Source of the DNA: a virus
Taxonomy: Duplodnaviria > Caudoviricetes
Virus record (IMG/VR): IMGVR_UViG_3300045120_000139
Span: 1-52,949 of that record
Length of the DNA stretch: 52,949 nt
Strand: one strand, 5' to 3'
Positions 1 through 52,949 of the stretch are shown piece after piece (the first letter of the stretch is position 1; each line of letters starts with the position of its first letter). Both the position numbers and the translations under genes were made by a program. The notes below the pieces were generated by a model that saw only the letters and a program-made list of their open reading frames with translations, had not been told where the DNA came from and made no database searches.

Positions 1-334
1 CACCTTCTCGCACGGCATAGGTGATATATGCCGTCGGGTCTGATCCGCGATCAGTCGTCCCCACGAATTCCCACGGCGTATCCGGGAAGAAATCTGATGG
101 ATACCAGCCGCCTTGGCCCTCCTTTTCGCCATAAGAAGACGCGGCGCATTGCAGGACGGTGCTTTTACCCGCGCCGTTCTCGCCAACGATCGCAACTATT
201 GGGAATTGGAAATCAATGCGCTGTCCAGTCCATCCGCGAATTCCAAAAATTTCAATATATTCAAGGCGTTTTGCCCAGCCTGTATTGTTCCGCCACTTGT
301 TTTCCAAGCGACGCATTTCTGCGCTCATGCCCAT
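1..334 (-). CDS. ABC/OLD-type ATPase (AAA_15/AAA_21-like), N-terminal part, runs off the window start; probable IS cargo
   Basis: Not in the ORF track. Hand translation: MGMSAEMRRLENKWRNNTGWAKRLEYIEIFGIRGWTGQRIDFQFPIVAIVGENGAGKSTVLQCAASSY..., with Walker A GENGAGKST. Frame is open to base 1. Confidence 0.85.
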   Translation of the reverse strand, partial: MGMSAEMRRLENKWRNNTGWAKRLEYIEIFGIRGWTGQRIDFQFPIVAIVGENGAGKSTVLQCAASSYGEKEGQGGWYPSDFFPDTPWEFVGTTDRGSDPTAYITYAVREG

Positions 335-412
335 GTGCGGCTCCAGGGAAAGTGGAATGACGCGCGCCTGCGGCGCGAAATCAAATCGAAGCTGCCATTT
401 GTCTGATTTAAC

Positions 413-453
413 TTGCACCGGGGAACTTTATTTGATAAATTCTGCGACGTCAA
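413..453. promoter_or_regulatory. Overlapping divergent sigma70-like promoters for the ATPase and the transposase
   Basis: + strand TTGCAC(413-418)-17 bp-TAAATT(436-441); - strand TTGACG(453-448)-17 bp-TAAAGT(430-425). Confidence 0.5.
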
Positions 454-479
454 GTAAGTTTTGCGCCGCAGAGGTTGTC

Positions 480-1469
480 ATGGCCAAGGTTCAGAACCGC
501 AGCACCAAGAACGATCCAGTGCTAATGGCGATTCCTGCCGCCTGCGCTGACGAGCGCGCGGCGGTCGAGTTCATGGAAATGCAGCGTTGGGGCGATGCGC
601 CGGGCTGTCCGCGCTGCGGCGATATGGATGTGTACCAGATGAAGGACAGTGTGACTGGCGAACGTCAGGCGAACTTCCGCTGGCGCTGCAAGGGTTGCAA
701 GCAGCAGTTCACCGTTCGCATCGGCACCGTGTTTGAAGACTCGCGCATTGAACTGCGCCACTGGTGCTATGCCTTCTGGCGCGCGGCCACATCGAAGAAA
801 GGCGTCGCGGCTCTCGAACTGCACCGTCAGACCGGCTTGAGCTACAAGTCTTGCTTGTTCATGCTTCAGCGCATCCGCTTCGCCATGGGTGGTTCAATGC
901 CCGGCCCTTTGAGCGGCCCAATTGAGGCAGACGAAACCTTTGTCGGCGGCAAGCCCCGCTACAAGCTGAAGAGCAAGCACGAGCGCGAGGAGTTCTTTGC
1001 GAAGAAGCCAGCTGTGATGGCTATCCTTGAGCGTGGCGGGCGCGTGCGCACTGGTGTGATTGCGGACGTGACCGCCAAGACCCTTGGCGCTGCGCTGCGT
1101 GAGAACGTAGACCCACCAGCATCCACGCTGTACACCGACGAGCTGTTCTCATATCGCCGCGTGGGCAGGGAGTTCGCCGGCGGCCACCACACGACCAAGC
1201 ACAGCGCCGGCGAATACGCGCGCGGCGACGTGCACAGCAATACGGTTGAAGGGTTCTTTTCGAGCTTGAAGCGCGGACTAAACGGCATCTACCATGCGGT
1301 CAGCAAGGAACACCTGCACCGCTACCTGTGCGAGTTTGAGTTCCGCTACAACCACCGCCATATGGATGATGGCGACCGCACGCGAGCGGTGATCCTCGCT
1401 TCCGAAGGCAAGCGGTTGACCTATGAAGAATCGAAAGCCAGCGAAGAAGCGTACGGGTCCGAAGCCTGA
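480..1469 (+). CDS. IS1595-family (ISXO2-like) DDE transposase
   Basis: Zn ribbon CPRCG...CKGC; motifs IEADETFVGG, LYTDE, HSNTVEGFFS, HLHRYLCEFEFRYN. Likely start ATG 480. Confidence 0.95.
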   Translation: MAKVQNRSTKNDPVLMAIPAACADERAAVEFMEMQRWGDAPGCPRCGDMDVYQMKDSVTGERQANFRWRCKGCKQQFTVRIGTVFEDSRIELRHWCYAFWRAATSKKGVAALELHRQTGLSYKSCLFMLQRIRFAMGGSMPGPLSGPIEADETFVGGKPRYKLKSKHEREEFFAKKPAVMAILERGGRVRTGVIADVTAKTLGAALRENVDPPASTLYTDELFSYRRVGREFAGGHHTTKHSAGEYARGDVHSNTVEGFFSSLKRGLNGIYHAVSKEHLHRYLCEFEFRYNHRHMDDGDRTRAVILASEGKRLTYEESKASEEAYGSEA

Positions 1470-1578
1470 TAGCGTCAAGATTGAGGGCGACTGGGAAGAG
1501 GCTGTAGGTAAGGCGCTCAAACTCAAGCGGCCCAAGGAAGGATGGCCGGCTCCAGAGAAGAAAAAGGGCGGTAGTTAG
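1423..1578 (+). CDS. Small basic protein overlapping the transposase 3' end
   Basis: 51 aa, below the track cut-off: MKNRKPAKKRTGPKPDSVKIEGDWEEAVGKALKLKRPKEGWPAPEKKKGGS. Confidence 0.6.
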   Translation: MKNRKPAKKRTGPKPDSVKIEGDWEEAVGKALKLKRPKEGWPAPEKKKGGS

Positions 1579-1594
1579 CCGCCCCAAAATATAC

Positions 1595-1801
1595 CTATTC
1601 TTGCTTCAGCACCCGATCAAGGCTTAAGCCATCGGTTGCTTTGAGGCACTGAACGTATAGAGTCAGCCAATACTTGCGATCTTTCGTGTGCTGCTGCGCG
1701 TTCTCGTTGTGCGTAATCCTTTCCAAGAGTTTGAATGCGACCATTTCTTTGCTGGTCGATTCGATCTCCACAGGCCCTGACACGTTAAGACTTTCCGACA
1801 T
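1595..1801 (-). CDS. Small hypothetical passenger protein
   Basis: ORF MSESLNVSGPVEIES...RKYWLTLYVQCLKA, with a GAGGGG RBS-like run upstream; convergent with the transposase. Confidence 0.6.
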   Translation of the reverse strand: MSESLNVSGPVEIESTSKEMVAFKLLERITHNENAQQHTKDRKYWLTLYVQCLKATDGLSLDRVLKQE

Positions 1802-1982
1802 GGGAACCCCCTCAGCTGGCACCGGATGGTGTCCGTGCTAAGGATTCTCTCACCGCATAGCAAAAGCTGAGACTGCTAAACGTGACAGGGCTGAGCGCGA
1901 CTATTCAAAAGTGGCGTGCCCGCGTGCCACGACCTACCATAGTCCGTCAAGAAAAATATGTTTCGCTAAGTACATACTCCCG

Positions 1983-2023
1983 TACTCAGGGGTATTGACA
2001 AGCCTATTACCCGCGAGTACATT
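1983..2023 (+). promoter_or_regulatory. PL-like early promoter with two 12-bp operators
   Basis: TACTCAGGGGTA(1983-1994), TTGACA(1995-2000), 17 bp, TACATT(2018-2023); operator TACCCGCGAGTA(2008-2019). Confidence 0.8.
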
Positions 2024-2109
2024 CGCCTCCATCCACAGGGAGCAATCCATGCAATCCGAAGCACAGCAAGTCGAGCAGGCGTTTGCCGATAGCTGCGACC
2101 CAAGCGCGC
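1983..2109 (+). repeat. 127-bp exact direct repeat, copy 1
   Basis: Identical to 52823-52949. Confidence 0.97.
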
Positions 2110-2279
2110 GGTACGAGCGCGGCTTGTGGGTCGTAAGTTACTACGGCCTGAAGTTCCGGCTGACGCGCAAGGCCGCGCCGGGAAGCCGCGATCAGGAAAT
2201 GGACCTGTCGGTTTCCTTCACGACGCTCGGCGAAGCGCAGGCTGCTGCTGATGCGCGCAATGCTGGTGGTGCACTGTGA
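2049..2279 (+). CDS. Hypothetical protein, first early gene
   Basis: AGGGAG RBS before ATG 2049, directly downstream of the promoter. Confidence 0.7.
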   Translation: MQSEAQQVEQAFADSCDPSARYERGLWVVSYYGLKFRLTRKAAPGSRDQEMDLSVSFTTLGEAQAAADARNAGGAL

Positions 2280-2470
2280 AGTCCGCCCGCGAGAAATACC
2301 TGCGCAACGAGGCGACGAAGCAGGTCGAGCGATACCTCCGCAAAGGCCGCCACCCCAACGGTGGCCGCAACCGCCATCCGCGCAATGCCCGGAAGCACAC
2401 CAGCCGCACCAAGCCCGGCAAGCACACCCGTTCCCGAATCCGCATGCGTTCCCATGGAGGCCGCTCATGA
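2276..2470 (+). CDS. Small highly basic (R/K/H-rich) protein
   Basis: GTGA/ATGA-coupled to both neighbours. Confidence 0.55.
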   Translation: MKSAREKYLRNEATKQVERYLRKGRHPNGGRNRHPRNARKHTSRTKPGKHTRSRIRMRSHGGRS

Positions 2471-3012
2471 TTCCGCTCGTCAAAATTCTGGCCGAGATCG
2501 TCTTCACCGCGGCGCTGCCGATCATGGCGGTGGCCCTGGTCACGAAGCGCGACGGCTTCTCGATTCGCTGGAACGTGCAGGCGATGACGATGCTGCTGCT
2601 CGTGGTGGTGGTTGCGGGGTTGTCGGGTTGTGCGGTCTCGCCGAACATCGATCCGCACAAGTACATGACGCCGACAGGGCACAACGTCGAAGCCTCTCCG
2701 GGCATGACGGCTGGCCCAGGATACAAGCTCGACGACAAGTATTTCGCCGCCGCAGAAGCGCGCACCAAGCTGCAGCATTCTGAGCGCTGGGCAGCATTCT
2801 GGTGCGACATCGGCAGCACGGCCATTGCTCTCGGTACGGGTGGTGGCAACGAGCTGTGGGGCAACGCCGCGCTATTGGTCAAGGTGCCGGTCAGCTACGT
2901 GATCGAGAAGAAACTCGTGCGCGATGCCGAGAACGATCATCCGGTTGGGCTGAACATCGTCAACGGGTTTCATTGGGGCGCGTGCCTGTCGAACATGGCG
3001 AGGGTGTTGTGA
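2467..3012 (+). CDS. Membrane protein or lipoprotein
   Basis: Two hydrophobic segments; the second ends in lipobox-like LSGC. Confidence 0.65.
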   Translation: MIPLVKILAEIVFTAALPIMAVALVTKRDGFSIRWNVQAMTMLLLVVVVAGLSGCAVSPNIDPHKYMTPTGHNVEASPGMTAGPGYKLDDKYFAAAEARTKLQHSERWAAFWCDIGSTAIALGTGGGNELWGNAALLVKVPVSYVIEKKLVRDAENDHPVGLNIVNGFHWGACLSNMARVL

Positions 3013-3242
3013 TGCGCGCCCTGACCTTCCTCGGCGCCTGCCTCGGCATCTCGCTGGCGATCTGCTCGGTCGGATTCTTCATGGCGGCGTTCACGTATTC
3101 GGACCCGCACGAGAACGCACTGCGCGCGTGTCTGCACGCATCGACGTCCGAATCCGTGGGTTCGCCTGCGTACGAGTCTGCGTCGCTGTCATGCGAGGCT
3201 TTGGTCAGCATGCGCGAGCAGGCGGCGAGGTCGCAGCCATGA
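3012..3242 (+). CDS. Small membrane protein
   Basis: MRALTFLGACLGISLAICSVGFF TM segment; coupled start. Confidence 0.55.
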   Translation: MRALTFLGACLGISLAICSVGFFMAAFTYSDPHENALRACLHASTSESVGSPAYESASLSCEALVSMREQAARSQP

Positions 3243-3649
3243 ACCGCGCCGCCTACTACGCCGCTCGCCATGCCGCCCGAGCGCACGCACGCATCGACAT
3301 CAGCGCCGAGCTGCGCGCCGCGGAGTACGCCGACTCACCAGGATGGGCGCAGCAGCAGATTCGCGCGCGTCACGCCGCAGCCTGCCCTCGCGTCCCGTTC
3401 GCCTACTCGTGGGAATGGGAATTCTTCTTTCGCCAGAGCGCGATCCGACGCAACCGCGTGCTCAGCTTGATCCGCGAACGCCGCGCACTGGCTGGCAAGC
3501 CCGGCGAGTCCGCATGGTGCTATCGCCTCACCCGCGAGCTGCGCGATGTTCTGGACTGCTGGAAGCGCAACGGCATGCACATGATTCCGGTTGGCTTGCC
3601 GCGTGACCGAGTTCCGGTTTCTCAGCCTGAAATGCGGAGAGCCGCTTGA
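3239..3649 (+). CDS. Hypothetical protein
   Basis: GAGG RBS, ATGA overlap. Confidence 0.6.
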   Translation: MNRAAYYAARHAARAHARIDISAELRAAEYADSPGWAQQQIRARHAAACPRVPFAYSWEWEFFFRQSAIRRNRVLSLIRERRALAGKPGESAWCYRLTRELRDVLDCWKRNGMHMIPVGLPRDRVPVSQPEMRRAA

Positions 3650-4002
3650 ACGTCGAGACCTACCACCGCGAACTTCAATCCCTTCTGCAACTGCGCCGGC
3701 TGAACAAGGCGCTCAAGGAGACTGGTCGAATGAACGTTTTTGCTGAAATCACCGATCGCAATCAGATCGGCACCGTGATGGTCGATTTCGAAGCCGAGCG
3801 TGACCGGCGCTTGCTCAAGCATCACCTGATCAAACGGTGCGCGGCACTGCCGATCATGCCTGACACCTTCGCGATGGCCTATCAGTTGGCTTGCAACGCG
3901 CGCCATGCTGGAGCGGACCAAGAGCAGGCGCTGCAGGCCGGAGTGCGGTATGCCGAGAGGCATCAGCTGCGCAGCAGCCCGCAGCCGCCGGAGGCAGCAT
4001 GA
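3646..4002 (+). CDS. Hypothetical protein
   Basis: Coupled ORF with GGAG RBS. Confidence 0.6.
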   Translation: MNVETYHRELQSLLQLRRLNKALKETGRMNVFAEITDRNQIGTVMVDFEAERDRRLLKHHLIKRCAALPIMPDTFAMAYQLACNARHAGADQEQALQAGVRYAERHQLRSSPQPPEAA

Positions 4003-4553: not shown

Positions 4554-4874
4554 ATGAAGCTCTATCGTCAAGGTGATGTACTGATCCGCCAGGTTGCTTC
4601 GCTTCCGTCCGATGCGAAGCCGGTGAAGAACAAAGGTCGCATCGTGCTGGCGCACGGCGAGGTGACTGGCCACGCGCACGCGATCGCCGTTCGCGAGGCG
4701 CGCGAGTTCACGATGGCTGACGCTGCGGGTGCAGTGAAGCGCTTCCTCAGCGTCGTCTCCGAAGCGACCGTGCGTCACGAAGAGCATGCGCCGATCACGC
4801 TGCCTGCCGGCGTGTACGAGATCGTGCAGCAGCGCGAGTACACGCCCGAAGAAATTCGCAACGTCGCGGATTGA
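4554..4874 (+). CDS. Conserved small His-rich phage protein, usual partner of DUF6745-like genes
   Basis: Motifs YRQGDV, LAHGEVTGHAH, HEEH, LPAGVYEIVQQREY; GAGG RBS. Confidence 0.8.
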   Translation: MKLYRQGDVLIRQVASLPSDAKPVKNKGRIVLAHGEVTGHAHAIAVREAREFTMADAAGAVKRFLSVVSEATVRHEEHAPITLPAGVYEIVQQREYTPEEIRNVAD

Positions 4875-4903
4875 ATCCTGCCAACAACGTGAGGGGAGAC
4901 GCC

Positions 4904-6301
4904 ATGGAAAAAATTACGAAACTCACGTCGGCGCAGGAGCGCCGACTCGGTGAAACGCTGAACAACTGGCTATCGATCGGGCGCACTACGCAACCGATTG
5001 ACCACCAGCATGCCACGGACGCGATTTGTGCGATGTATGAAGCCATCGGAAAGCCGCGACCCGCCGTGTTGTTTTTCAGCTCGCCCATGATGTGCATTCT
5101 CGCGTACGGCGCTTTGCGCGCATTCGCGCAAAGCGCCGGCGCGGAGGGTAAACAGCTCAGGTCGCAGCTCGTGTCGCATCTCGGGTCGCAGCTCGGGTCG
5201 CATCTCGGGTCGCATCTCGGGTCGCAGCTCAGGTCGCAGCTCAGGTCGCAGCTCGGGTCGCATCTCGGGTCGCAGCTCAGGTCGCAGCTCAGGTCGCAGC
5301 TCGTGTCGCAGCTCGGGTCGCAGCTCGGGTCGCATCTCGGGTCGCATCTCGGGTCGCAGCTCAGGTCGCAGCTCGGGTCGCAGCTCGTGTCGCAGCTCGG
5401 GTCGCAGCTCAGGTCGCAGCTCTGGTCGCAGCTCGGGTCGCAGCTCAGGTCGCAGCTCTGGTCGCAGCTCGGGTCGCATCTCGGGTCGCAGCTCGGGTCG
5501 CAGCTCGGGTCGCATCTCGGGTCGCAGCTCGGGTCGCAGCTCGGGTCGCAGCTCGGGTCGCAGCTCTGGTCGCAGCTCTGGTCGCAGCTCAGCAATTATT
5601 TCGCCGGAGCGCAGTGGTGCGGATGGGAGGTTTTTTACGATTTTTGCGGCGAGATAGGCGTGCAATATAACGATTGGCAAAAATCGACACTGGCGCTCTG
5701 GTTGCGCCAGTCGCAGCACTGCCACTGGTGGTTCCCGTATGAAGGAATCGTCTTCGCCTCCGAGCGTCCGACGCAGCTCGCGGTGGATGTGCAAGGCCGC
5801 CTGCATGCGCTCGACAAGCAGGCGATCGGATATTCGGACGGGTGGGGCGTTCATGCCGTCCATGGCGTGCAAATCCCCGCCGAGCTGATCGAGCAGCCCG
5901 CGAGCATCACGACCGCGAGAATCGAATCGGAGCGCAACGCTGAAGTGCGGCGCGTGATGATCGAGCTGTTCGGCCAGGATCGCTACCTGCTCGACTCCGG
6001 CGCCAAGGTCGTTTCTCACGATCGAGCCGGCATTCTCTATCGCAAGGACCTGGCCGACGACGAACCCATCGTGATGGTGCGCGTGCTGAATTCCACGCCG
6101 GAGCCAGACGGCGTTATGTCGCGCGACGAAGCGATCGCAACATTCGGCGTGGCTGCGCGTGCTGCCATCGATTCACCGGAAGGCAGCCGTTTCAAGCAGT
6201 ACATGATCAGAGTTCCGCCGGAAGTGCGTAGTGCGCAGGAAGCGGTTGCTTGGACGTTCAATCTCAAGCCGGGCGAATACGAGCCGGCCGTCGAGAGCTA
6301 A
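4904..6301 (+). CDS. DUF6745-like protein with a tetrapeptide repeat array
   Basis: FFSSP, then xSQL repeats, then [54 protein letters not shown]. Confidence 0.8.
5159..5590 (+). repeat. 36 x 12-bp coding tandem repeat (A/G/T)GG|GTG-TCG-CA(G/T)-CTC
   Basis: Counted directly; encodes [R/V/G/W]S[Q/H]L. Confidence 0.97.
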
Positions 6302-6572: not shown

Positions 6573-7324
6573 GCGTCGCGCCTGAAGCTGTGCGCGGCGA
6601 ATTGGTCGCGGCCGCGCCTCGCAAGCGCAGCGCGCTGACCACCACGACGCCAGCAGATCTGCTGCGCTTGGCCGTCGAGCAGGGAGCCGATCTGGACCGG
6701 CTGGAAAAGCTCATGGACCTCCAGACGCGCTACGAGGCCGACCAGGCGCGCAAGGCATACGTCGCCGCGATGGCGGCGTTCAAGGCCGAACCGCTGTCGA
6801 TCGACAAGGACAAGCACGTCCGCTACGTCAAGAAGGACGGCAGCGTTACCGAGTACGATCATGCGTCGATCGGCAACGTTGTCACGCGGATCTGCGCGGA
6901 GCTCGGCAAGCACGGTTTCTCACATCGCTGGGACACGAAGCAGATCGACGGCAAGGTGACGGTGACCTGCATCATTACGCACGAGCTCGGCCATTCCGAG
7001 AGCACGCAGTTATTCGCGAGCCCGGATGACTCTGGCGGCAAGAATGGCATCCAGTCGATTGCGTCGACGGTCACATATCTGCAGCGGTATACGTTGCTCG
7101 CCGCGACCGGTCTGGCTACGAGCGACCAGGAGGACGATGACGGCCGCGGCGCCGGCGATGCAGTTCCGATGTATCTGGCCGCGGAATACGCCGACTGGAA
7201 ATCGAAGATCGACGACTGCGTGACGCCTGATGATTTCGCGGCGACGTGGAAGGAAATGTCGCCCGGCGTGCGGAAGGTGATGGCGGACTACGTCAAGCAG
7301 AAAAAGGCGGAGGTCCTGCCGTAA
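6569..7324 (+). CDS. erf: ERF-family single-strand annealing protein
   Basis: ADLDRLEKLMDLQ; KNGIQSIASTVTYLQRYTLLAATGLA; EDDDG. Confidence 0.9.
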   Translation: MSVAPEAVRGELVAAAPRKRSALTTTTPADLLRLAVEQGADLDRLEKLMDLQTRYEADQARKAYVAAMAAFKAEPLSIDKDKHVRYVKKDGSVTEYDHASIGNVVTRICAELGKHGFSHRWDTKQIDGKVTVTCIITHELGHSESTQLFASPDDSGGKNGIQSIASTVTYLQRYTLLAATGLATSDQEDDDGRGAGDAVPMYLAAEYADWKSKIDDCVTPDDFAATWKEMSPGVRKVMADYVKQKKAEVLP

Positions 7325-8100
7325 TGATCATCCACAACTGCGCTCAGGGTTCACCGGAATGGCATCAGGCGCGCTGCGGAGTGATCACGGCGAGTATGTT
7401 CTGCGTGATCCGCAAACGCGTCGGCTGCCTGACCGATCAGCAGCAGCGATTCGTCGACGCGGTGCGCGCCGGCCGCGACGAGAGGGGTGCGATGGAAGCG
7501 GCTGGCTATAAGGCCAAGCCGCGCGCCGAGGGCATCGAGCGTGCGCTGGCCGGCGAAGTCGTCGGCGACTACTCGGACGCGGCGAAGGACTACGCCTTCC
7601 GCTTGGCCGTGGAGCGCATCAGCGGCGAACCGCTCGATGAGCAGTTCCAGACGTTCGCCATGCGCCGCGGCAACGAGCTCGAGCCGGATGCGCGGTTCGC
7701 TCACGAGATGGCCGCCGGCGTCACCGTGCGGCGTGCTGGCTTCGTCTCCACCGATGACAACGCGTTCGGCGGCAGCGCCGACGGCTTGATCGGCGAGGAC
7801 GGTGGCAGCGAGTACAAATGCCTGATCGATCCGGCCAGGCTGCGTCATGTACTGATCGATAATGACACCTCCGAGTTCACGGACCAGGTGCAGGGATGTC
7901 TCTGGCTGACCGGCCGCAAGTTCTGGCACTTCGCGCTTTATTGCCCCGCGCTGGCGCCGATCAGCAAGGAACTCTGGTGGAGAGAGTTCAAGCGAGATGA
8001 CGCCTACATCGAGCGCATGGAAGCCGACCTGGTCGCGTTCAAGACGCTCGTCGACAACAACGAACGCCATCTGCGCGAAGACGTGCGAATCGCCGCATGA
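7324..8100 (+). CDS. YqaJ/lambda-exonuclease family nuclease
   Basis: QGSPEWHQARCGVITAS, RGNELEP, GSADGL, EYKC, QVQG. Confidence 0.92.
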   Translation: MIIHNCAQGSPEWHQARCGVITASMFCVIRKRVGCLTDQQQRFVDAVRAGRDERGAMEAAGYKAKPRAEGIERALAGEVVGDYSDAAKDYAFRLAVERISGEPLDEQFQTFAMRRGNELEPDARFAHEMAAGVTVRRAGFVSTDDNAFGGSADGLIGEDGGSEYKCLIDPARLRHVLIDNDTSEFTDQVQGCLWLTGRKFWHFALYCPALAPISKELWWREFKRDDAYIERMEADLVAFKTLVDNNERHLREDVRIAA

Positions 8101-9986: not shown

Positions 9987-10730
9987 ATGACTACTGAACT
10001 AAAAATCATCTTGCGCGCAGTGGTCGGTTCGACGGTCCACGGTACGAACGTGGCGCAGCAGGACGACCGCGACGAAATGGCAATCGCCATCGAGCCGCCG
10101 CGTCTGGTGTTTGGCCTGACGCACTGGGAAACGACCGTCGAGCGCACGCAGCCGGAAGGCGTGCGTTCCGGGCCGGGCGATCTGGACTTGGTAATCCACT
10201 CGCTGCGCAAGTATTGCAGGCTGGCAGCCAAAGGTAATCCGACGATGCTGCTGCCGCTATTCGTGCCTGAGGACGCGATTGTCGAAATCACAGATACGGG
10301 TCGGTCGCTCATGAACTGCCGCAACATGTTCCTGTCGCGCGACTGCGGCAAGGCGTTCCTTGGCTACATGATCGCGCAGAAGTCGCGGCTTGAGGGCACG
10401 CAAGGCGGGCGGCATGGCTCGCGGCCTGAGCTGGTCGAGAAGTACGGCTTCGACACCAAGTACGCCGGGCATGTGATCCGCCTCGGCTACCAGGGCTTGG
10501 AACTGATGCAAACCGGCAAGCTAAGCCTCCCAATGGCCGCGCATCACAGCGCCGACGTGCGATCTATCCGCACTGGCGGCTGGACGCTGGATGGCGTGCT
10601 AAACCTTGCTGGCGAGCTTGAGCGCGACTTGCGTGACTCGCTCGATACCGGATTCCTGCCAGAGCATGCGGACGAACAGGCTATCAACTGCTTTTGCTCG
10701 AACGCCTACCTGAAGGAATGGGGTTATTAG
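9987..10730 (+). CDS. DNA polymerase beta superfamily nucleotidyltransferase (Nuc-transf/RlaP-like)
   Basis: VVGSTVHG...DDRDE (GS + DxD), KGNP, FLGY, YGFDTKYAGHVIRL. Confidence 0.85.
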   Translation: MTTELKIILRAVVGSTVHGTNVAQQDDRDEMAIAIEPPRLVFGLTHWETTVERTQPEGVRSGPGDLDLVIHSLRKYCRLAAKGNPTMLLPLFVPEDAIVEITDTGRSLMNCRNMFLSRDCGKAFLGYMIAQKSRLEGTQGGRHGSRPELVEKYGFDTKYAGHVIRLGYQGLELMQTGKLSLPMAAHHSADVRSIRTGGWTLDGVLNLAGELERDLRDSLDTGFLPEHADEQAINCFCSNAYLKEWGY

Positions 10731-49462: not shown

Positions 49463-51292
49463 TCACGCCACTTCGCTCTGGCTGTCGACCACACTGAGCG
49501 GCATCAGCGACCGCGGGCGTTGGTTCGGCCCGCTCAAGAATTGCGTAGTTGTCTTGTCGAACCAAAGTGCGATTGATGGCTCTTCTCCAGTGGCGCGCTG
49601 CTTGCTGACGAACAGCACAGTGTCTGGCGCGTTGGCGAATTTCTCGTCGAGCTGCTCGGGCTCTTGTCCGATCTCGGCGAGATTTGCGTTCTTGTCGGCG
49701 AGATTCTTCACGGCGCGCTCGCGCGGCCGATTGCGCCATATCTCGATTGTCGTGTCGGCCATATCGGTAATACCGCCGGATCCCTTCACGCCGCTCTTGC
49801 CCGCAGGCCGATCTTCGCTCTCGCCTTTTCCGCCCTTGCGCATGTGCGCGACGATGGCGATGTGCGCGCCAGACTCGCGGGCGAAGTCGGTCAAATCCTC
49901 GACAAAGGTTTTCTGGCCCGCGTAATCGTCATCGGCGAATCCGCACTTCGTGAGGTTGTCGATGACGAACAGGTCTATCTGATAGCGGCGGCGCGCGTAC
50001 TTGAACACCTCAAGGATTCGCTGACCCTTCGCGCGGCCGGCCACATCGAACGCGAACATGCAGGCCGAAAGCTTGCGATGAATCTCCCGCGCGAATGCCT
50101 GTGTAGGCTTGCAAACTCCTGCCACCTGACGATTCATGCGCATCAGCCACATCGGCGTGCGGAACTCCATGCTGGCGACACAAACCTTCGAACCGGCCAG
50201 CGCCAGGAATCCGACGACATAGCTGATCACGGCAGACTTTCCGTGGCCGCTGTAGCCTGCCCATATCGATGTCTCTCCCGGGCGAAGGCGCAGCGTGTTA
50301 TGCGTCTTCGGCCATGGCAGCAGCATGCCTTCGTCAACGCGGTCATACTCCGCGATCACGTCGTCTTCGAAGTCTCCGACGTTGCGCAATTCGTCAGGGT
50401 CTTGCGTGCGCGCCATGCGCATCGCTTCGATAATCTGCTCACGCGTAATGCCTTGTACAAGGCATTCGTTCGCGTCCTTATGCGGCAACCGAACGACCTT
50501 GCAACGTTCGCGGCCGAGGCGCTCCACAAGATCCGGTATAGCCTTGCGGCCTGCGGCGTCATCGTCCATCGATAGGTAGATCGTATCGAATCGCTCGAGG
50601 CGCTCGTACTCGCGCTCAATCCATCCATGCGCTCCGGCGCCGGTAGGAACACTTAGACTCGGGAAGCCGTACGCGTGCATCGCTATCGCATCGAGTTCGC
50701 CCTCGGTGATGCACACTGCGCGCGCCTTGAGACTCAGCGCCTGCCAGCCGAACAGAATCGGCTCGCACTCCGCATCGGCGCTGAACTGCTTCGGCAGCTT
50801 GCGGTACTTTGCGAAGACTAGGTCTTCTCCGAGCAGATAGGGAAACATCAGACGCTCGCCGCGGCTCGCCAGCTTGTATGCGTCGATCGACTCAAGCGGC
50901 AGATTGCGTACGTCCGTCAGCCAGGTCAGATGTTCCGCGGTCAGGCGACTGACGCCTTCGCGCGTCGGCCGGCTCCATGCGCGCGTGTCTCGCCTCACCG
51001 GACGGTCTTCGCTGATCCCGAGAAGCGCCAGCGCTTGGCTGCATGCCTCTTGCAGCGTGCAATTGCGCGCCGCCATCCATAGTCCGATGAAATCGCCCTT
51101 GTCGCCGGTGCTGAAGTCAGACCACACCCCGGCCTTATCGCCAGTCAGATGCACGCCGAGGGAATCGCCTGGCTCGCCGCTGAGGCTGCCGCACTTCCAT
51201 TCATGACCGACGCGCTTTCCCTGCGGTAGCAGTTCGCGCACCACAGATTCTGCTTGCGCGCCGAGAAGCCGCGAAATATCAGAAGCTCTCAC
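49463..51292 (-). CDS. Fused TOPRIM primase / SF4 (DnaB/T7 gp4-like) helicase
   Basis: ITEGELDA, MDDDAAG, KDANE; GYSGHGKS, FVIDNL, VAH, KGSG. Confidence 0.92.
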   Translation of the reverse strand: MRASDISRLLGAQAESVVRELLPQGKRVGHEWKCGSLSGEPGDSLGVHLTGDKAGVWSDFSTGDKGDFIGLWMAARNCTLQEACSQALALLGISEDRPVRRDTRAWSRPTREGVSRLTAEHLTWLTDVRNLPLESIDAYKLASRGERLMFPYLLGEDLVFAKYRKLPKQFSADAECEPILFGWQALSLKARAVCITEGELDAIAMHAYGFPSLSVPTGAGAHGWIEREYERLERFDTIYLSMDDDAAGRKAIPDLVERLGRERCKVVRLPHKDANECLVQGITREQIIEAMRMARTQDPDELRNVGDFEDDVIAEYDRVDEGMLLPWPKTHNTLRLRPGETSIWAGYSGHGKSAVISYVVGFLALAGSKVCVASMEFRTPMWLMRMNRQVAGVCKPTQAFAREIHRKLSACMFAFDVAGRAKGQRILEVFKYARRRYQIDLFVIDNLTKCGFADDDYAGQKTFVEDLTDFARESGAHIAIVAHMRKGGKGESEDRPAGKSGVKGSGGITDMADTTIEIWRNRPRERAVKNLADKNANLAEIGQEPEQLDEKFANAPDTVLFVSKQRATGEEPSIALWFDKTTTQFLSGPNQRPRSLMPLSVVDSQSEVA

Positions 51293-51317: not shown

Positions 51318-52121
51318 TCATATAGCTGTCCTCAGCAGGAAGTCGAGGTCATCAGCCGCAGGCGCGCCGTTCCCGACGGAAGTTGTGGCAGATACGTTCG
51401 AAGTCTTCGACTGAATGCCGTCGTTCCAGCGATCCTGGTTGAGGTAGGTTTCAGGGTTCGGGACAAACCCGTCGCGCCATCTGCGATCCGTGGCGATGCG
51501 TTGCCTGACGTCGGCAATGATAACCTCCGCTACACGGTCAAGCTGGCGGGCCTTCCACTTCGTCGCACAAGGCTTCTTCCCAACCTTCTCGGGGTATAGT
51601 TTCCAGAATTCGTCAAACCGGGAAGTGGGAACTTGCTGCGGTTCGCTGAATATCTTTTGATCTTTCTTCTCTTCTTCTTCTTCTTCTTCTTCTTCTTCTG
51701 GTAACGCTTTATGTAACGCATCGAGCGTTACATGCGTAACGCTCAAATCGTTGCATTCAGCGTTACTGATGCGTTTCACTTCTCTGTAATCAGAGACACG
51801 TTTATTCGTAACTGCCCGTTTCTTCGCTGTTTCTCCGTTGTGCCTGTCGAAGTTAGGGAAAGTCACCGTACCGCCGTCGATCAGCAACCAGCGTACCTCG
51901 ACCATTGCAGAAGCGAAGCCTGTTCGCCCGATCTTGCGATCTATCCAGTCTGCTGTAACGCTGACAGCGTTACCGTCGACGCTGTGCTTATCTGCCCACG
52001 ACCACAGCCAGTGAAGGTGCCCGACAACCTCCGCCTCGCGGATGTCCAGCTTCCCTGCGATGGAGATCACCGCTGGATCTTCGTGCAGGTCGTGACGCAT
52101 CTTGATCCACTCCCCAGACAT
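51318..52121 (-). CDS. Replication initiator
   Basis: WIKM, LHWLWSWAD, FDEFWKLYP, PETYLNQDRWND. Confidence 0.8.
   Translation of the reverse strand: MSGEWIKMRHDLHEDPAVISIAGKLDIREAEVVGHLHWLWSWADKHSVDGNAVSVTADWIDRKIGRTGFASAMVEVRWLLIDGGTVTFPNFDRHNGETAKKRAVTNKRVSDYREVKRISNAECNDLSVTHVTLDALHKALPEEEEEEEEEEKKDQKIFSEPQQVPTSRFDEFWKLYPEKVGKKPCATKWKARQLDRVAEVIIADVRQRIATDRRWRDGFVPNPETYLNQDRWNDGIQSKTSNVSATTSVGNGAPAADDLDFLLRTAI
51662..51972. repeat. Putative origin inside the initiator gene: GTAACG/CGTTAC iterons beside a (GAA)n tract
   Basis: Several GTAACGC copies in both orientations at 51701-51766 and 51955-51972; TTC run at about 51665-51699. Confidence 0.6.
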
Positions 52122-52538: not shown

Positions 52539-52763
52539 TTAGGCAGCTTTTTGTTCGGTATCACCCCAAATATCCGGCCGAAGCTCCTCGCGCTTCACCG
52601 CGTCGCCACTTTCATCGGCGAGACGGCGCACAAGGCCTCCGTCTATATTTGGTTTCGTTGAGAGTGCTTTGCGAAGATAGCCGATTGAGGTACCGCAACG
52701 CTTCGCGTAGGCGGCTTGATCTTGAACGGAGAGTGTTGCGAGGTAAGCGCGTAGAGTTTCCAT
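52539..52763 (-). CDS. cro: Cro/YdaS-like HTH regulator
   Basis: QAAYAKRCGTSIGYLRK...GDAVKREELRPDIW. Confidence 0.88.
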   Translation of the reverse strand: METLRAYLATLSVQDQAAYAKRCGTSIGYLRKALSTKPNIDGGLVRRLADESGDAVKREELRPDIWGDTEQKAA

Positions 52764-52770
52764 GTCGCGC

Positions 52771-52812
52771 AATTTACTCGCGGGTATGAAGCGATGTCAA
52801 TACCAACAGGAA
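52771..52812 (-). promoter_or_regulatory. PR-like promoter with operators
   Basis: TTGACA(52800-52795)-18 bp-TAAATT; operator TACTCGCGGGTA(52775-52786); weaker site TACCAACAGGAA(52801-52812). Confidence 0.75.
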
Positions 52813-52822
52813 ATAATTATTT

Positions 52823-52949
52823 TACTCAGGGGTATTGACAAGCCTATTACCCGCGAGTACATTCGCCTCCATCCACAGGGAGCAATCCATGCAATCCGAA
52901 GCACAGCAAGTCGAGCAGGCGTTTGCCGATAGCTGCGACCCAAGCGCGC
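52823..52949 (+). repeat. 127-bp exact direct repeat, copy 2 (window end)
   Basis: Identical to 1983-2109. Confidence 0.97.

What the first reader, a model, noticed from the sequence alone, without database searches (positions are those of the whole stretch)
1..2109. Two alleles of the phage switch: empty, or filled by an IS1595 cargo transposon that ends exactly at the operator
Seen: the same PL promoter and first gene (127 bp) has two different upstream neighbours. At 52822 it follows the cro promoter. At 1982 it follows a TIR-like end (reverse complement CGGGAGTATGTACTTAGCGAAAC) of an IS1595 element, and the junction is the first base of operator TACTCAGGGGTA. Known: IS1595 elements carry passenger genes and make ~8-bp target duplications; in lambdoid phages this slot holds cI and immunity genes. 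Inference, three options: (a) a cargo transposon inserted into the phage switch in part of the population; (b) the IS branch is the ancestral immunity region and the circle is a deletion derivative; (c) the transposase joins this integrase-less phage to another replicon, or excises a cassette as a genetic switch.
Basis: partly seen in the sequence, partly recalled or inferred. Interest (0 to 1): 0.8.

Follow-up and report, generated by a model that had tools for sequence, protein, structure and literature searches.

The report
Cargo transposon polymorphic in a phage
About one fifth of a 50.8-kb soil phage population seems to carry a gene-carrying jumping element, loaded with a likely anti-phage defence gene, inserted exactly between the phage's two early promoters, while the rest have the empty site.

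Summary
Bases 1983-2109 equal 52823-52949 exactly (127 bp), with no match further left. The contig is therefore a 1982-bp tail joined to a 50,840-bp circle. 127 is the largest k-mer of the JGI metaSPAdes workflow.

The tail ends at 1982 in a genuine terminal inverted repeat. Among 86 loci with homologous IS1595 transposases, 64 have the same 22-bp repeat on both sides. Of the 63 that could be checked, 58 have perfect 8-bp target duplications.

The elements are 2.0-4.6 kb and carry very varied passenger genes. Most also carry a conserved 51-aa ORF. In the window the cargo includes the N-terminus of a HEC-04/IbfA-like ABC ATPase, a validated defence type.

In the best-matching run the tail has depth 4.6-5.8 against 22.9 for the circle. 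A run from a second study holds the filled junction.

The empty site is a symmetric divergent-promoter region carrying three copies of an operator-like motif.

Option (a), insertion in part of the population, is best supported. The left end of the element was not recovered. This is a known kind of event, moderately interesting.

The parts
2..418 (-). N-terminal 139 codons of an ABC-type ATPase that runs off the window's left end. The likely true start is near 334, where homologues begin. It is a HEC-04/IbfA-like cargo gene.
   Evidence: Pfam AAA_23 2.9e-10. PADLOC HEC-04 7.3e-14, residues 33-112 on model positions 9-81 of 494. Full-length metagenome homologues of 477-484 aa (52-58% identical to this piece) match the whole HEC-04 model at 2.3e-51 and 1.9e-50.
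425..453 (-). Promoter-like site facing the ATPase gene (TTGACG-17-TAAAGT).
   Evidence: Consensus scan, 9 of 12 matches. Pattern only.
480..1469 (+). IS1595-family transposase, 329 aa, full length.
   Evidence: Homologues of 329-334 aa cover 99-100% of it at 83-92% identity. L003 matches residues 1-329 at 83%.
1423..1578 (+). Conserved 51-aa basic ORF (GPKP..KIEGDW..AV.K.L..KRP..GWP) that overlaps the end of the transposase gene in another frame. Function unknown.
   Evidence: tblastn hits in 74 of 86 loci and in 55 of 58 complete elements, always inside the element. Codon-position entropy is 1.31/1.16/1.67, highest at the third position. No Pfam, PADLOC, NCBIfam or Atlas name.
1565..1585 (-). 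Terminator-like hairpin downstream of the 75-aa ORF.
   Evidence: Pattern only.
1595..1822 (-). 75-aa ORF of unknown function.
   Evidence: No family hit. One homologue at 50% identity, in the same place next to the right TIR of L003, the closest element.
1961..1982 (-). Right 22-bp terminal inverted repeat of the element (CGGGAGTATGTACTTAGCGAAA read inwards).
   Evidence: 18 of 22 identical to the consensus of 116 ends. Conservation drops after position 22. The boundary is defined by 8-bp duplications in 58 of 63 loci.
1983..1990 (.). Predicted 8-bp target-site duplication, TACTCAGG. This is the right copy. The left copy is not in the window.
   Evidence: Inferred from the family's 8-bp duplications and from the single copy in the empty site at 52823-52830.
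1983..2109 (+). First copy of the 127-bp exact repeat, where the tail enters the circle.
52823..52949 (+). Second copy of the 127-bp repeat, where the circle closes. This is the assembler's overlap.
   Evidence: The JGI workflow uses metaSPAdes with k up to 127 (Assembly passage).
52771..52863 (.). Empty-site control region. It holds two divergent sigma-70-like promoters: minus strand 52800 to 52771, and plus strand 52835-52863 (= 1995-2023). It also holds three 12-bp operator-like motifs (52776-52787, 52823-52834, 52848-52859) and nested inverted repeats.
   Evidence: 3 promoter-like sites against 0.3 +/- 0.6 in shuffles; direct-repeat family D1, inverted repeat I1 (16 nt, 94%) and I2 (10 nt, 100%).
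52539..52772 (-). Cro-like HTH gene. The start is probably the ATG at 52763, as in relatives. It heads the leftward operon: replication initiator 51318-52121, primase/helicase 49463-51292.
   Evidence: phrog_25161 3.2e-11, phrog_35 4.6e-10, phrog_2509 5.2e-54 and phrog_239 7e-109. Relatives start with METLR.
2049..2279 (+). First gene of the rightward operon, 76 aa, with no family. A YqaJ-type exonuclease lies further on at 7246-8100.

Best explanation
The window is a 'lollipop' contig. A 50,840-bp circular (or circularly permuted) tailed-phage genome occupies 1983-52822, and the assembler's 127-bp overlap closes it. Attached to it is a 1982-bp tail, which is the second left-hand neighbour of base 1983 present in the same reads.

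The tail is the right-hand part of an IS1595-family transporter IS. Reading inwards from the right end it holds a 22-bp TIR, a 75-aa ORF, a conserved 51-aa ORF, the transposase, and a divergently transcribed HEC-04/IbfA-like ABC ATPase gene. That last gene runs off the window. The left TIR therefore lies further left, and the whole element is probably about 3.1-3.4 kb or more.

The DDE transposase inserted the element into the AT-rich spacer between the phage's two divergent early promoters and should have duplicated TACTCAGG. Both promoters keep their -35 and -10 boxes. The rightward promoter keeps its adjacent operator-like motif, but the two halves of the symmetric control region are now kilobases apart.

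The empty site is the original state. The filled allele makes up roughly a fifth of the population in the best-matching run.

Shown: the repeat, the TIR and its exact boundary, the family's 8-bp duplications, the identity of the genes, and the depth step.

Inferred: the left junction, the total size, that the filled genomes are viable phages, and that the ATPase protects the phage's host cell against other phages.
For: Structure. Exact 127-bp repeat with zero leftward extension. 127 is the top k-mer of the JGI metaSPAdes workflow, and the record is an IMG/VR entry.

Element boundary. The junction 1982/1983 falls on the last base of a TIR. Of 86 loci with transposase homologues (80 genome, 6 viral), 64 have the TIR core on both sides of the gene. 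63 of these have enough flank to test, and 58 of the 63 have a perfect 8-bp duplication. TIR conservation is 0.61-1.0 over positions 1-22 and at most 0.41 beyond.

Target choice. Duplications are 78% A+T in flanks with median 58% G+C. This fits the AATAATTATTT|TACTCAGG site.

Empty allele. A 3249-nt Logan contig of run X1 (depth 22.9) starts with 22 letters, TACCAACAGGAAATAATTATTT, before 1983. These equal window 52801-52822.

Filled allele. Tail contigs of X1 have depth 3.9-5.8. Run X2, from another study, has a 151-nt contig covering 1955-2105 with no differences.

Native empty site. It has nested inverted repeats and three copies of the motif.

Phage nature. Terminase, portal, major head protein, tape measure and a Q-like protein are present.

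Cargo. HEC-04 is reported as an ABC ATPase-TOPRIM that defends against coliphages, with Walker A and metal-site mutants inactive (passages). IbfA is reported as its homologue (passages).
Against: The left TIR and the left junction were never seen. No TIR lies in 1-480, or anywhere else in the window.

Three searches found nothing: a metagenome scan for the phage flank of the site, and IMG/VR scans for the phage side of the junction and for the predicted left junction.

In X1 the listed Logan contigs stop at 1812. By my arithmetic on the depth bins, none covers 1813-1982. In that run the filled junction therefore rests on the original assembly alone (5 records were not listed).

The X2 contig has only 28 letters left of the junction, under the tool's 31-letter bar. 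X2 has no exact cover of the element's interior.

Logan depths are one figure per contig, and the tail's depth sums every copy of the element in the sample. 'One fifth' is thus an upper estimate for filled phages.

The predicted duplication TACTCAGG is only 50% A+T. Only 9 of 58 family duplications have four or fewer A/T.

An extra 3 kb or more may strain packaging. This was not tested.
Confidence: 0.75

Rival explanations
1. The filled junction belongs to a cointegrate or to another replicon. A resident copy of the element in the host chromosome or a plasmid transposed replicatively into the phage circle. The integrase-less phage then sits between two copies of the element.
For: The record has no tyrosine or serine recombinase and no S24 repressor, so another route into a replicon is conceivable. 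A cointegrate gives the same phage-element junctions as a simple insertion. The contig and the Logan contig both stop at window base 1, which could mark a branch in the reads.
Against: No host DNA is seen. Nothing shows that IS1595 elements transpose replicatively; I recall the mechanism as unsettled. Both assemblies could equally stop at base 1 because of a coverage gap, given a depth near 5. The phage lacks the marks of a temperate life style that would make integration useful.
Confidence: 0.1
2. The two alleles belong to two different, related phages or prophages in the sample. They share the early region, and one of them carries the element. They are not variants of one population.
For: Lambdoid genomes are mosaic (recalled). 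In X2, exact cover stops at 3013 although the junction is present. This suggests a relative that shares only part of the region.
Against: In X1 no variant letters are listed in 1983-4000, and one contig of depth 22.9 covers it. Contigs do hide rare variants, however. This reading still implies an insertion at this same site.
Confidence: 0.08
3. The filled form is ancestral and the circle is a deletion derivative that lost an immunity region.
For: The circle lacks a cI-type gene. In contrast, 10 of 11 inspected IMG/VR loci with a homologue of the cro-like gene have a divergent S24-type repressor gene next to it. Nine of these were tested by Pfam and all nine hit PF00717 at 2e-13 to 3e-28. The window shows no hit with these proteins (best E 0.063).
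Against: The empty site carries exactly one copy of the 8-bp target and is a symmetric promoter-operator region. A deletion ending precisely at a TIR terminus while removing the element is not what IS-mediated deletions do (recalled). The tail shows element DNA next to the junction, not a repressor gene.
Confidence: 0.04
4. The tail was joined to the circle by an assembly error.
For: Logan contigs of X1 do not bridge 1982/1983.
Against: The tail and the circle share no sequence left of the junction that could mislead a de Bruijn graph. The break falls on the exact terminal base of a TIR. A contig from a second study holds the same junction.
Confidence: 0.03

Closest known systems
Transporter IS (tIS) of the IS1595 family. 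Source: Siguier, Gagnevin and Chandler 2009, not read here. It is cited as the source of 'transporter ISs' in PMC3129680 and of the family's features in PMC8101967 (passages).
   Same: DDE_Tnp_IS1595 domain plus an N-terminal zinc ribbon. Short TIRs. 8-bp target duplications. Passenger genes unrelated to transposition lie between the TIRs.
   Different: This clade has a second conserved gene, the 51-aa ORF, in 74 of 86 loci. Its 22-bp TIR is nearly invariant across phyla, and almost every copy carries different cargo. Its transposase is at most 41% identical to any in 72,556 plasmid records and at most 32% to any in 50,697 phage records. I could not compare it with ISfinder entries.
IS insertions in lambdoid phage genomes (classical lambda IS1/IS2 insertion mutants; recalled, no call).
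   Same: A bacterial IS lands in the early regulatory region of a phage and coexists with the wild type.
   Different: Here the element carries cargo, sits between intact promoters rather than inside a gene, and is seen in an uncultured population.
HEC-04 / IbfA single-gene defence (bioRxiv 10.1101/2024.01.29.577857 and PMC12111858, passages only).
   Same: The N-terminal ABC ATPase with Walker A matches the PADLOC HEC-04 model. Full-length homologues match the model end to end.
   Different: Only 139 residues are in the window, so the TOPRIM half is unseen. The carrier is a transposon inside a phage, not an Hma island or a plasmid. No function was tested.
Tn7-like transposons with defence cargo (PMC8649781, search listing and abstract only).
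   Same: Transposons whose variable cargo is rich in conflict systems.
   Different: The transposition machinery is unrelated and much larger, and it is site-specific. The present elements are 2-4.6 kb with a single DDE transposase.
Lambda immunity region with accessory genes (cI-rexAB; morons). Recalled.
   Same: Accessory, possibly protective genes sit between the divergent early promoters.
   Different: There is no cI here. The genes arrive by transposition and are present in only part of the population.

Membership tests
IS1595 family | Transposase with a DDE_Tnp_IS1595 catalytic domain | tested here: met
   PF12762 1.2e-37. NF033547 at 177.7 bits against a cut-off of 75.
IS1595 family | N-terminal zinc-ribbon domain (all groups but IS1016; PMC8101967 passage) | tested here: met
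   PF12760 1.3e-10, residues 24-76.
IS1595 family | 8-bp target-site duplication | tested here: inconclusive
   Met in relatives: 58 of 63 testable loci have a perfect 8-bp duplication. For the window's copy only the right flank, TACTCAGG, is available.
IS1595 family | Terminal inverted repeats at both ends | tested here: inconclusive
   The right TIR is present at 1961-1982. No left TIR lies in the window. 64 of 86 related loci have both.
IS1595 family | A single gene, the transposase (classical IS; PMC8101967 passage) | tested here: not met
   At least three further ORFs lie within the element's part of the window. It is therefore a transporter IS, not a simple IS.
Transporter IS (tIS) | Passenger genes between the TIRs that move with the element | tested here: met
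   In 58 complete elements there are 176 ORFs of 70 aa or more, falling into 146 clusters. All lie inside TIRs that are flanked by duplications. For the window's copy the ATPase counts as cargo only by inference, because no TIR separates it from the transposase gene.
HEC-04 / IbfA defence ATPase | ABC-type ATPase head with a Walker A motif | tested here: met
   GENGAGKST is present. HEC-04 model positions 9-81 match at 7.3e-14.
HEC-04 / IbfA defence ATPase | C-terminal TOPRIM nuclease domain | not testable with these tools
   The gene is cut by the window's left end. Homologues 52-58% identical to the N-terminal piece match model positions 8-489 of 494.
HEC-04 / IbfA defence ATPase | Protection against phage infection | not testable with these tools
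   This needs expression and plaque assays.
Lambdoid immunity region | Cro-type HTH gene at a divergent promoter-operator region | tested here: met
   phrog_35 4.6e-10. Promoters and repeated motifs were found by pattern.
Lambdoid immunity region | Divergent cI-type (S24) repressor gene | tested here: not met
   No PF00717 match in the record. tblastn with nine cI-like proteins from relatives gave a best E of 0.063. The gene is present in 10 of 11 inspected relatives.

The most novel reading that the evidence does not exclude
A large clade of IS1595-type elements, apparently undescribed, is common in soil Acidobacteriota, Planctomycetota, Gemmatimonadota and Gammaproteobacteria. It has a two-gene core (the transposase plus a 5-kDa basic protein), an almost invariant 22-bp TIR and two cargo slots.

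This clade may act as a shuttle for conflict-system genes and move them into phage genomes. In this case it has given a cI-less, integrase-less lambdoid phage a HEC-04/IbfA-type abortive-infection gene, in the very slot where relatives keep their immunity genes. The filled phage is viable and spreading, since it is seen in two studies. That would make it a snapshot of how phages acquire defence 'morons' by transposition.
Probability: 0.3. Interest if true: 0.65.

Novelty: new member of a known kind. Interest (0 to 1): 0.45.

Why it matters
The finding shows, in an uncultured population, a transposon with a likely anti-phage gene caught part-way through spreading in a phage genome. It sits at a site that leaves both early promoters intact. 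That is a concrete and testable route by which phages gain accessory defence genes.

The comparison also defines an abundant clade of cargo-carrying IS1595 elements. At least 6946 transposase relatives score E <= 1e-20 among the 8000 candidates scored. The clade has exact ends, 8-bp AT-rich targets, a conserved small protein of unknown role and hypervariable cargo. It could be mined for new conflict systems.

For assembly users it is a clear example that an internal repeat of k-mer length at a contig end marks a circle with an attached alternative allele. IMG/VR classes the record 'linear', and CheckV rates it 75% complete.

Tried and rejected
Searches for close relatives of the tail. blastn of 1-2300 found nothing in deposited phages. 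In plasmids it found only short 72-77% matches within the transposase gene.

Exact-pattern scans that found nothing:
- IMG/VR, for the phage side of the junction.
- IMG/VR, for the TIR end.
- IMG/VR, for the predicted left junction.
- Metagenome contigs, for the phage flank of the site.

Left end of the element. It was not recovered. Metagenome relatives of the ATPase (8 loci, 39-58% identical) are stand-alone genes. Only chance-level TIR-like strings lie near them. They served solely to show the full-length architecture.

Inverted repeats inside 1-2300. None pairs with the right end. The weak CGGGG... string at 419-441 matches the TIR at 11 of 23 positions (my own count) and was rejected as a left end.

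The 51-aa and 75-aa ORFs. No Pfam, PADLOC, NCBIfam or Atlas name was found.

Literature. Searches for IS1595 with passenger genes, defence or cargo, and ISfinder group names found no description of this clade or of IS1595 elements carrying defence genes. The library lacks most subscription journals, including the 2009 IS1595 paper. PMC7371123 held nothing useful.

Logan data for run X1. The part without cover (1813-1982) and the shared stop at base 1 are no evidence either way.

Supplementary files were not seen; Table S2 of the HEC preprint may define HEC-04 more closely. No structure, complex or RNA tools were used. They were not needed for the question.
Full report
1. The observation

The window is one IMG/VR virus record of 52,949 bp. 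IMG/VR classes it 'linear', and CheckV estimates it 75% complete. Bases 1983-2109 and 52823-52949 are identical over 127 bp. The identity stops at once on the left, with 0 further matching bases.

The contig is therefore a circle of 50,840 bp (1983-52822) closed by a 127-bp overlap, with a 1982-bp tail that enters the circle at 1983. The JGI metagenome workflow assembles with metaSPAdes at k = 33, 55, 77, 99 and 127 (Assembly passage). An overlap of exactly 127 is what that assembler leaves when a path returns to a k-mer it has already used. That this record came from that workflow is my inference.

Two left neighbours of base 1983 therefore exist in the reads...ACATACTCCCG from the tail and ...GGAAATAATTATTT from the circle.

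2. What the tail is

ORF 480-1469 (+) is a full-length IS1595-family transposase. It matches PF12762 at 1.2e-37 and PF12760 at 1.3e-10, and NF033547 at 177.7 bits against a cut-off of 75. Relatives of 329-334 aa are 83-92% identical over 99-100% of it.

I fetched 86 loci that encode relatives, 80 from species genomes and 6 from IMG/VR. I then searched them for the reverse complement of 1961-1982. The string recurs on the + strand upstream and on the - strand downstream of the transposase gene in most loci.

Using a 14-nt core with up to 3 mismatches, the tally was as follows:
- 64 of 86 loci have it on both sides. One of these lies at a contig end, so its flank cannot be read.
- 10 have it only on the left, 9 only on the right, and 3 not at all. 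Many of these loci are cut by contig ends.
- Of the 63 loci with readable flanks, 58 have a perfect 8-bp direct repeat immediately outside the two ends.
- The other five are L009, L042, L066 and L069, with 2-4 mismatches, and L064, with N in the flank.

Where a locus had several candidate ends, the script kept the pair with the best duplication. Most loci had one candidate per side.

The ends are conserved over exactly 22 bp. The share of the commonest base is 0.61-1.0 at positions 1-22 and at most 0.41 beyond. The window's end matches the consensus at 18 of 22 positions. The duplications are 78% A+T, although the flanks have a median of 58% G+C.

This is a bona fide mobile-element family, and the window's tail ends on its terminal base. 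A chimeric join would have no reason to fall there.

3. The element family

Complete elements measure 1965-4566 bp, with a median of 3019.

Besides the transposase they share a small ORF, which in the window is 1423-1578 (51 aa). It is found in 74 of 86 loci and in 55 of 58 complete elements, always inside the element. In 52 of those 55 it has the orientation of the transposase gene. Third codon positions vary most, with entropy 1.31/1.16/1.67. This speaks for a protein. It has no name in Pfam, PADLOC, NCBIfam or the ESM Atlas.

Everything else varies. The 58 elements hold 176 mechanical ORFs of 70 aa or more, which fall into 146 clusters. The largest cluster has 7 members.

Of the 106 ORFs of 110 aa or more:
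- Pfam names only a few: NYN 3, HTH_3 3, HTH_31 3, Proteasome 3, Peptidase_M78 2, SocA_Panacea 2, HARE-HTH 2, and single methylases, HNH, Mrr_cat, a Clp protease and MqsA.
- PADLOC at E <= 1e-5 names HEC-09 3, RmrA 2, MTase_II 2 and capP 2, and DrmMII and PDC-S42 once each.

The cargo thus leans towards toxin-antitoxin, restriction and defence themes, but most of it is unknown.

Transporter ISs with passenger genes were first described for this very family (PMC3129680 passage citing Siguier et al. 2009). [quoted passage not shown] The kind is therefore known.

The clade itself looks unexplored. The nearest transposase in 72,556 plasmid records is 40.9% identical. Only 2 of 50,697 phage records have any match, at 32% or less. 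Metagenomes, in contrast, hold at least 6946 relatives at E <= 1e-20 among the 8000 candidates scored.

4. The window's copy

Reading inwards from the right end at 1982, the tail holds:
- the TIR (1961-1982);
- a 75-aa ORF (1595-1822, minus strand), whose only homologue sits in the same place in the closest element, L003;
- the 51-aa ORF;
- the transposase gene;
- beyond a 61-145-bp spacer with a promoter-like site, the start of a gene transcribed leftwards that runs off the window (2-418).

Its 139 residues carry a Walker A motif and match the PADLOC model HEC-04 at 7.3e-14, on model positions 9-81 of 494. Eight metagenome loci encode relatives 39-58% identical to this piece. Five full-length ORFs of 477-505 aa were read from them, plus a more distant one of 524 aa. 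The two I scanned match the HEC-04 model from position 8 to 489 at 2.3e-51 and 1.9e-50.

[quoted passage not shown] IbfA of Salmonella plasmids is reported as its homologue (passages).

No TIR lies between this gene and the transposase gene, or anywhere else in the window. One match was found at 1964-1982, against 0.01 expected. The ATPase gene is therefore cargo by inference, and the left TIR lies beyond base 1. With a gene of about 480 codons, the element should be about 3.1-3.4 kb or more, which is inside the family's range.

5. The insertion site

The circle is a tailed phage with a lambdoid layout.
- Leftwards from the site run a cro-like HTH gene (phrog_35 4.6e-10), a replication initiator (5.2e-54), a primase/helicase (7e-109), a helicase and a methylase. 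Further on come a Q-like protein, the large terminase, major head protein, portal and tape measure.
- Rightwards run small ORFs, a DUF6745 protein, a YqaJ-type exonuclease and an RlaP protein.

Between the two operons lie only about 120 bp. This stretch holds two divergent promoter-like sites, each matching 10 of 12 consensus positions. In all, 3 sites were found against 0.3 +/- 0.6 in shuffles. It also holds three copies of a 12-bp motif (52776, 52823, 52848), a 16-nt inverted repeat (94%) and a 10-nt inverted repeat (100%).

The element sits 22 bp from the leftward -35 box and 12 bp from the rightward -35 box. It lies at the first base of the middle motif. Both promoters stay whole, and the rightward one keeps the complete motif.

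This symmetric architecture, with a single copy of TACTCAGG, is what an unoccupied target looks like, not a deletion scar.

6. Support from reads

One run, X1, holds 94% of the sampled words of 1-4000. It may be the source sample. A second run, X2, from another study, holds 16%. Only Logan contigs could be laid, not raw reads.

In X1:
- Tail contigs have depths of 5.8, 4.6, 3.9 and 5.1.
- The contig from 1983 onwards has depth 22.9 and begins with 22 letters identical to window 52801-52822, which is the empty junction.
- The ratio is about 0.2-0.25. This is an upper bound for filled phages, because other copies of the element would add to the tail's depth.
- The listed X1 contigs stop at 1812. 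The bin depths (2.66 and 4.79) equal what records 7 and 8 alone would give. Logan contigs of X1 therefore probably do not cover 1813-1982, and this says nothing either way.

In X2:
- A 151-nt contig covers 1955-2105 without a difference. It holds 28 letters of TIR and 123 of phage.
- This is below the tool's 31-letter bar for a bridge, but it is an independent sighting of the same junction.
- X2 has no exact cover of the element's interior, and none of 3014-4000.

7. The options

(a) Insertion in part of the population is best supported (0.75).

(c) A cointegrate or another replicon gives identical junctions and cannot be excluded (0.1). The record has no integrase of either type.

A related second phage carrying the element is a variant of (a) (0.08).

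(b) Deletion from a filled ancestor is unlikely (0.04). One fact does bear on it: the phage lacks a cI-type repressor. Of 29 IMG/VR loci with a homologue of the cro-like gene, I inspected 11. Ten of them have a divergent S24-type gene next to it. Nine of these were tested and all nine hit PF00717. L102 carries the same ORF as L101. L108 has a Rha-like gene instead. The window has neither a PF00717 match nor any similarity to those proteins (best E 0.063).

The 'empty' allele is therefore a cI-less and integrase-less lambdoid phage. It is probably lytic, or controlled in some other way.

Assembly error is very unlikely (0.03).

8. How it most likely works

The first step is inferred from established knowledge of DDE transposases. 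The transposase binds the two 22-bp ends, makes cuts staggered by 8 bp in an AT-rich target, and joins the element. Repair then yields the 8-bp duplication.

The ATPase gene has its own promoter-like site and would be expressed in infected cells. There, a HEC-04-type protein could abort infections by competing phages. That benefit would explain a frequency near one fifth and the presence of the junction in two studies.

This last step, and any role for the 51-aa protein in transposition, are speculation.

9. Verdict

It is an insertion polymorphism of a known kind of element (an IS1595 transporter IS) in a phage. Two points are of wider interest: a likely defence gene delivered into the control region of a phage, and a large, sharply defined and apparently unstudied clade of cargo elements.

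Interest 0.45. New member of a known kind.

Noticed in passing
window 1423-1578; e.g. L003:4944-5087, L025:6262-6393: A 45-51-aa basic ORF (GPKP..KIEGDW..AVKK.L.KKKP..GWP) is a second conserved gene of these IS1595-type elements. It occurs in 74 of 86 loci. In about half of the elements it ends 64-131 bp from the element end that it faces. No database names it.
   Followed up: partly
L004:2489-2630: A 142-bp miniature element bounded by the same TIRs lies 8 bp from a full-length element. It looks like a MITE-type derivative of the family.
   Followed up: partly
L086, L087, L088 (IMG/VR contigs): Three viral contigs end inside the transposase gene at about the same residue (111). This is probably an assembly break at a repeated element. 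L087 and L088 also carry a second, solo left-type TIR about 840 bp upstream.
   Followed up: no
L083:2155-6309, L084:3873-6000, L085:3918-6613: Complete relatives of the element, flanked by duplications, sit in other IMG/VR contigs. Their sites differ. In L085 the element lies between a helicase/methyltransferase gene and the portal gene. In L083 it lies near a methyltransferase gene. The promoter slot is therefore not a preferred phage target.
   Followed up: partly
window 52771-52863 and the whole record: The phage has a cro-like gene but no cI-type S24 repressor and no tyrosine or serine recombinase. In contrast, 10 of 11 inspected relatives pair the cro homologue with a divergent S24 repressor gene. 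The -10 box lies 7 nt before the likely ATG at 52763, so the cro-like mRNA may be leaderless.
   Followed up: partly
window base 1: The IMG/VR contig and an independently built Logan contig of run X1 both start at exactly the same base, inside the ATPase gene. This could be a coverage gap at depth about 5, or a further branch in the reads. It is not resolved.
   Followed up: no
DATJYK01 (L036, L039) and JBAUAN01 (L055, L066): Two MAGs each hold two copies of the element family with different sizes and cargo. This suggests several active lineages per genome.
   Followed up: no
window 51318-52121: The replication-initiator gene encodes a run of ten glutamates followed by lysines in its middle. 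This also flooded the pattern search.
   Followed up: no
window 4871-6301 and 9987-10730: The rightward early operon encodes a DUF6745 protein (3.5e-58) and an RlaP 'RNA repair pathway DNA polymerase beta family' protein (1.7e-25). Both are unusual phage early genes.
   Followed up: no
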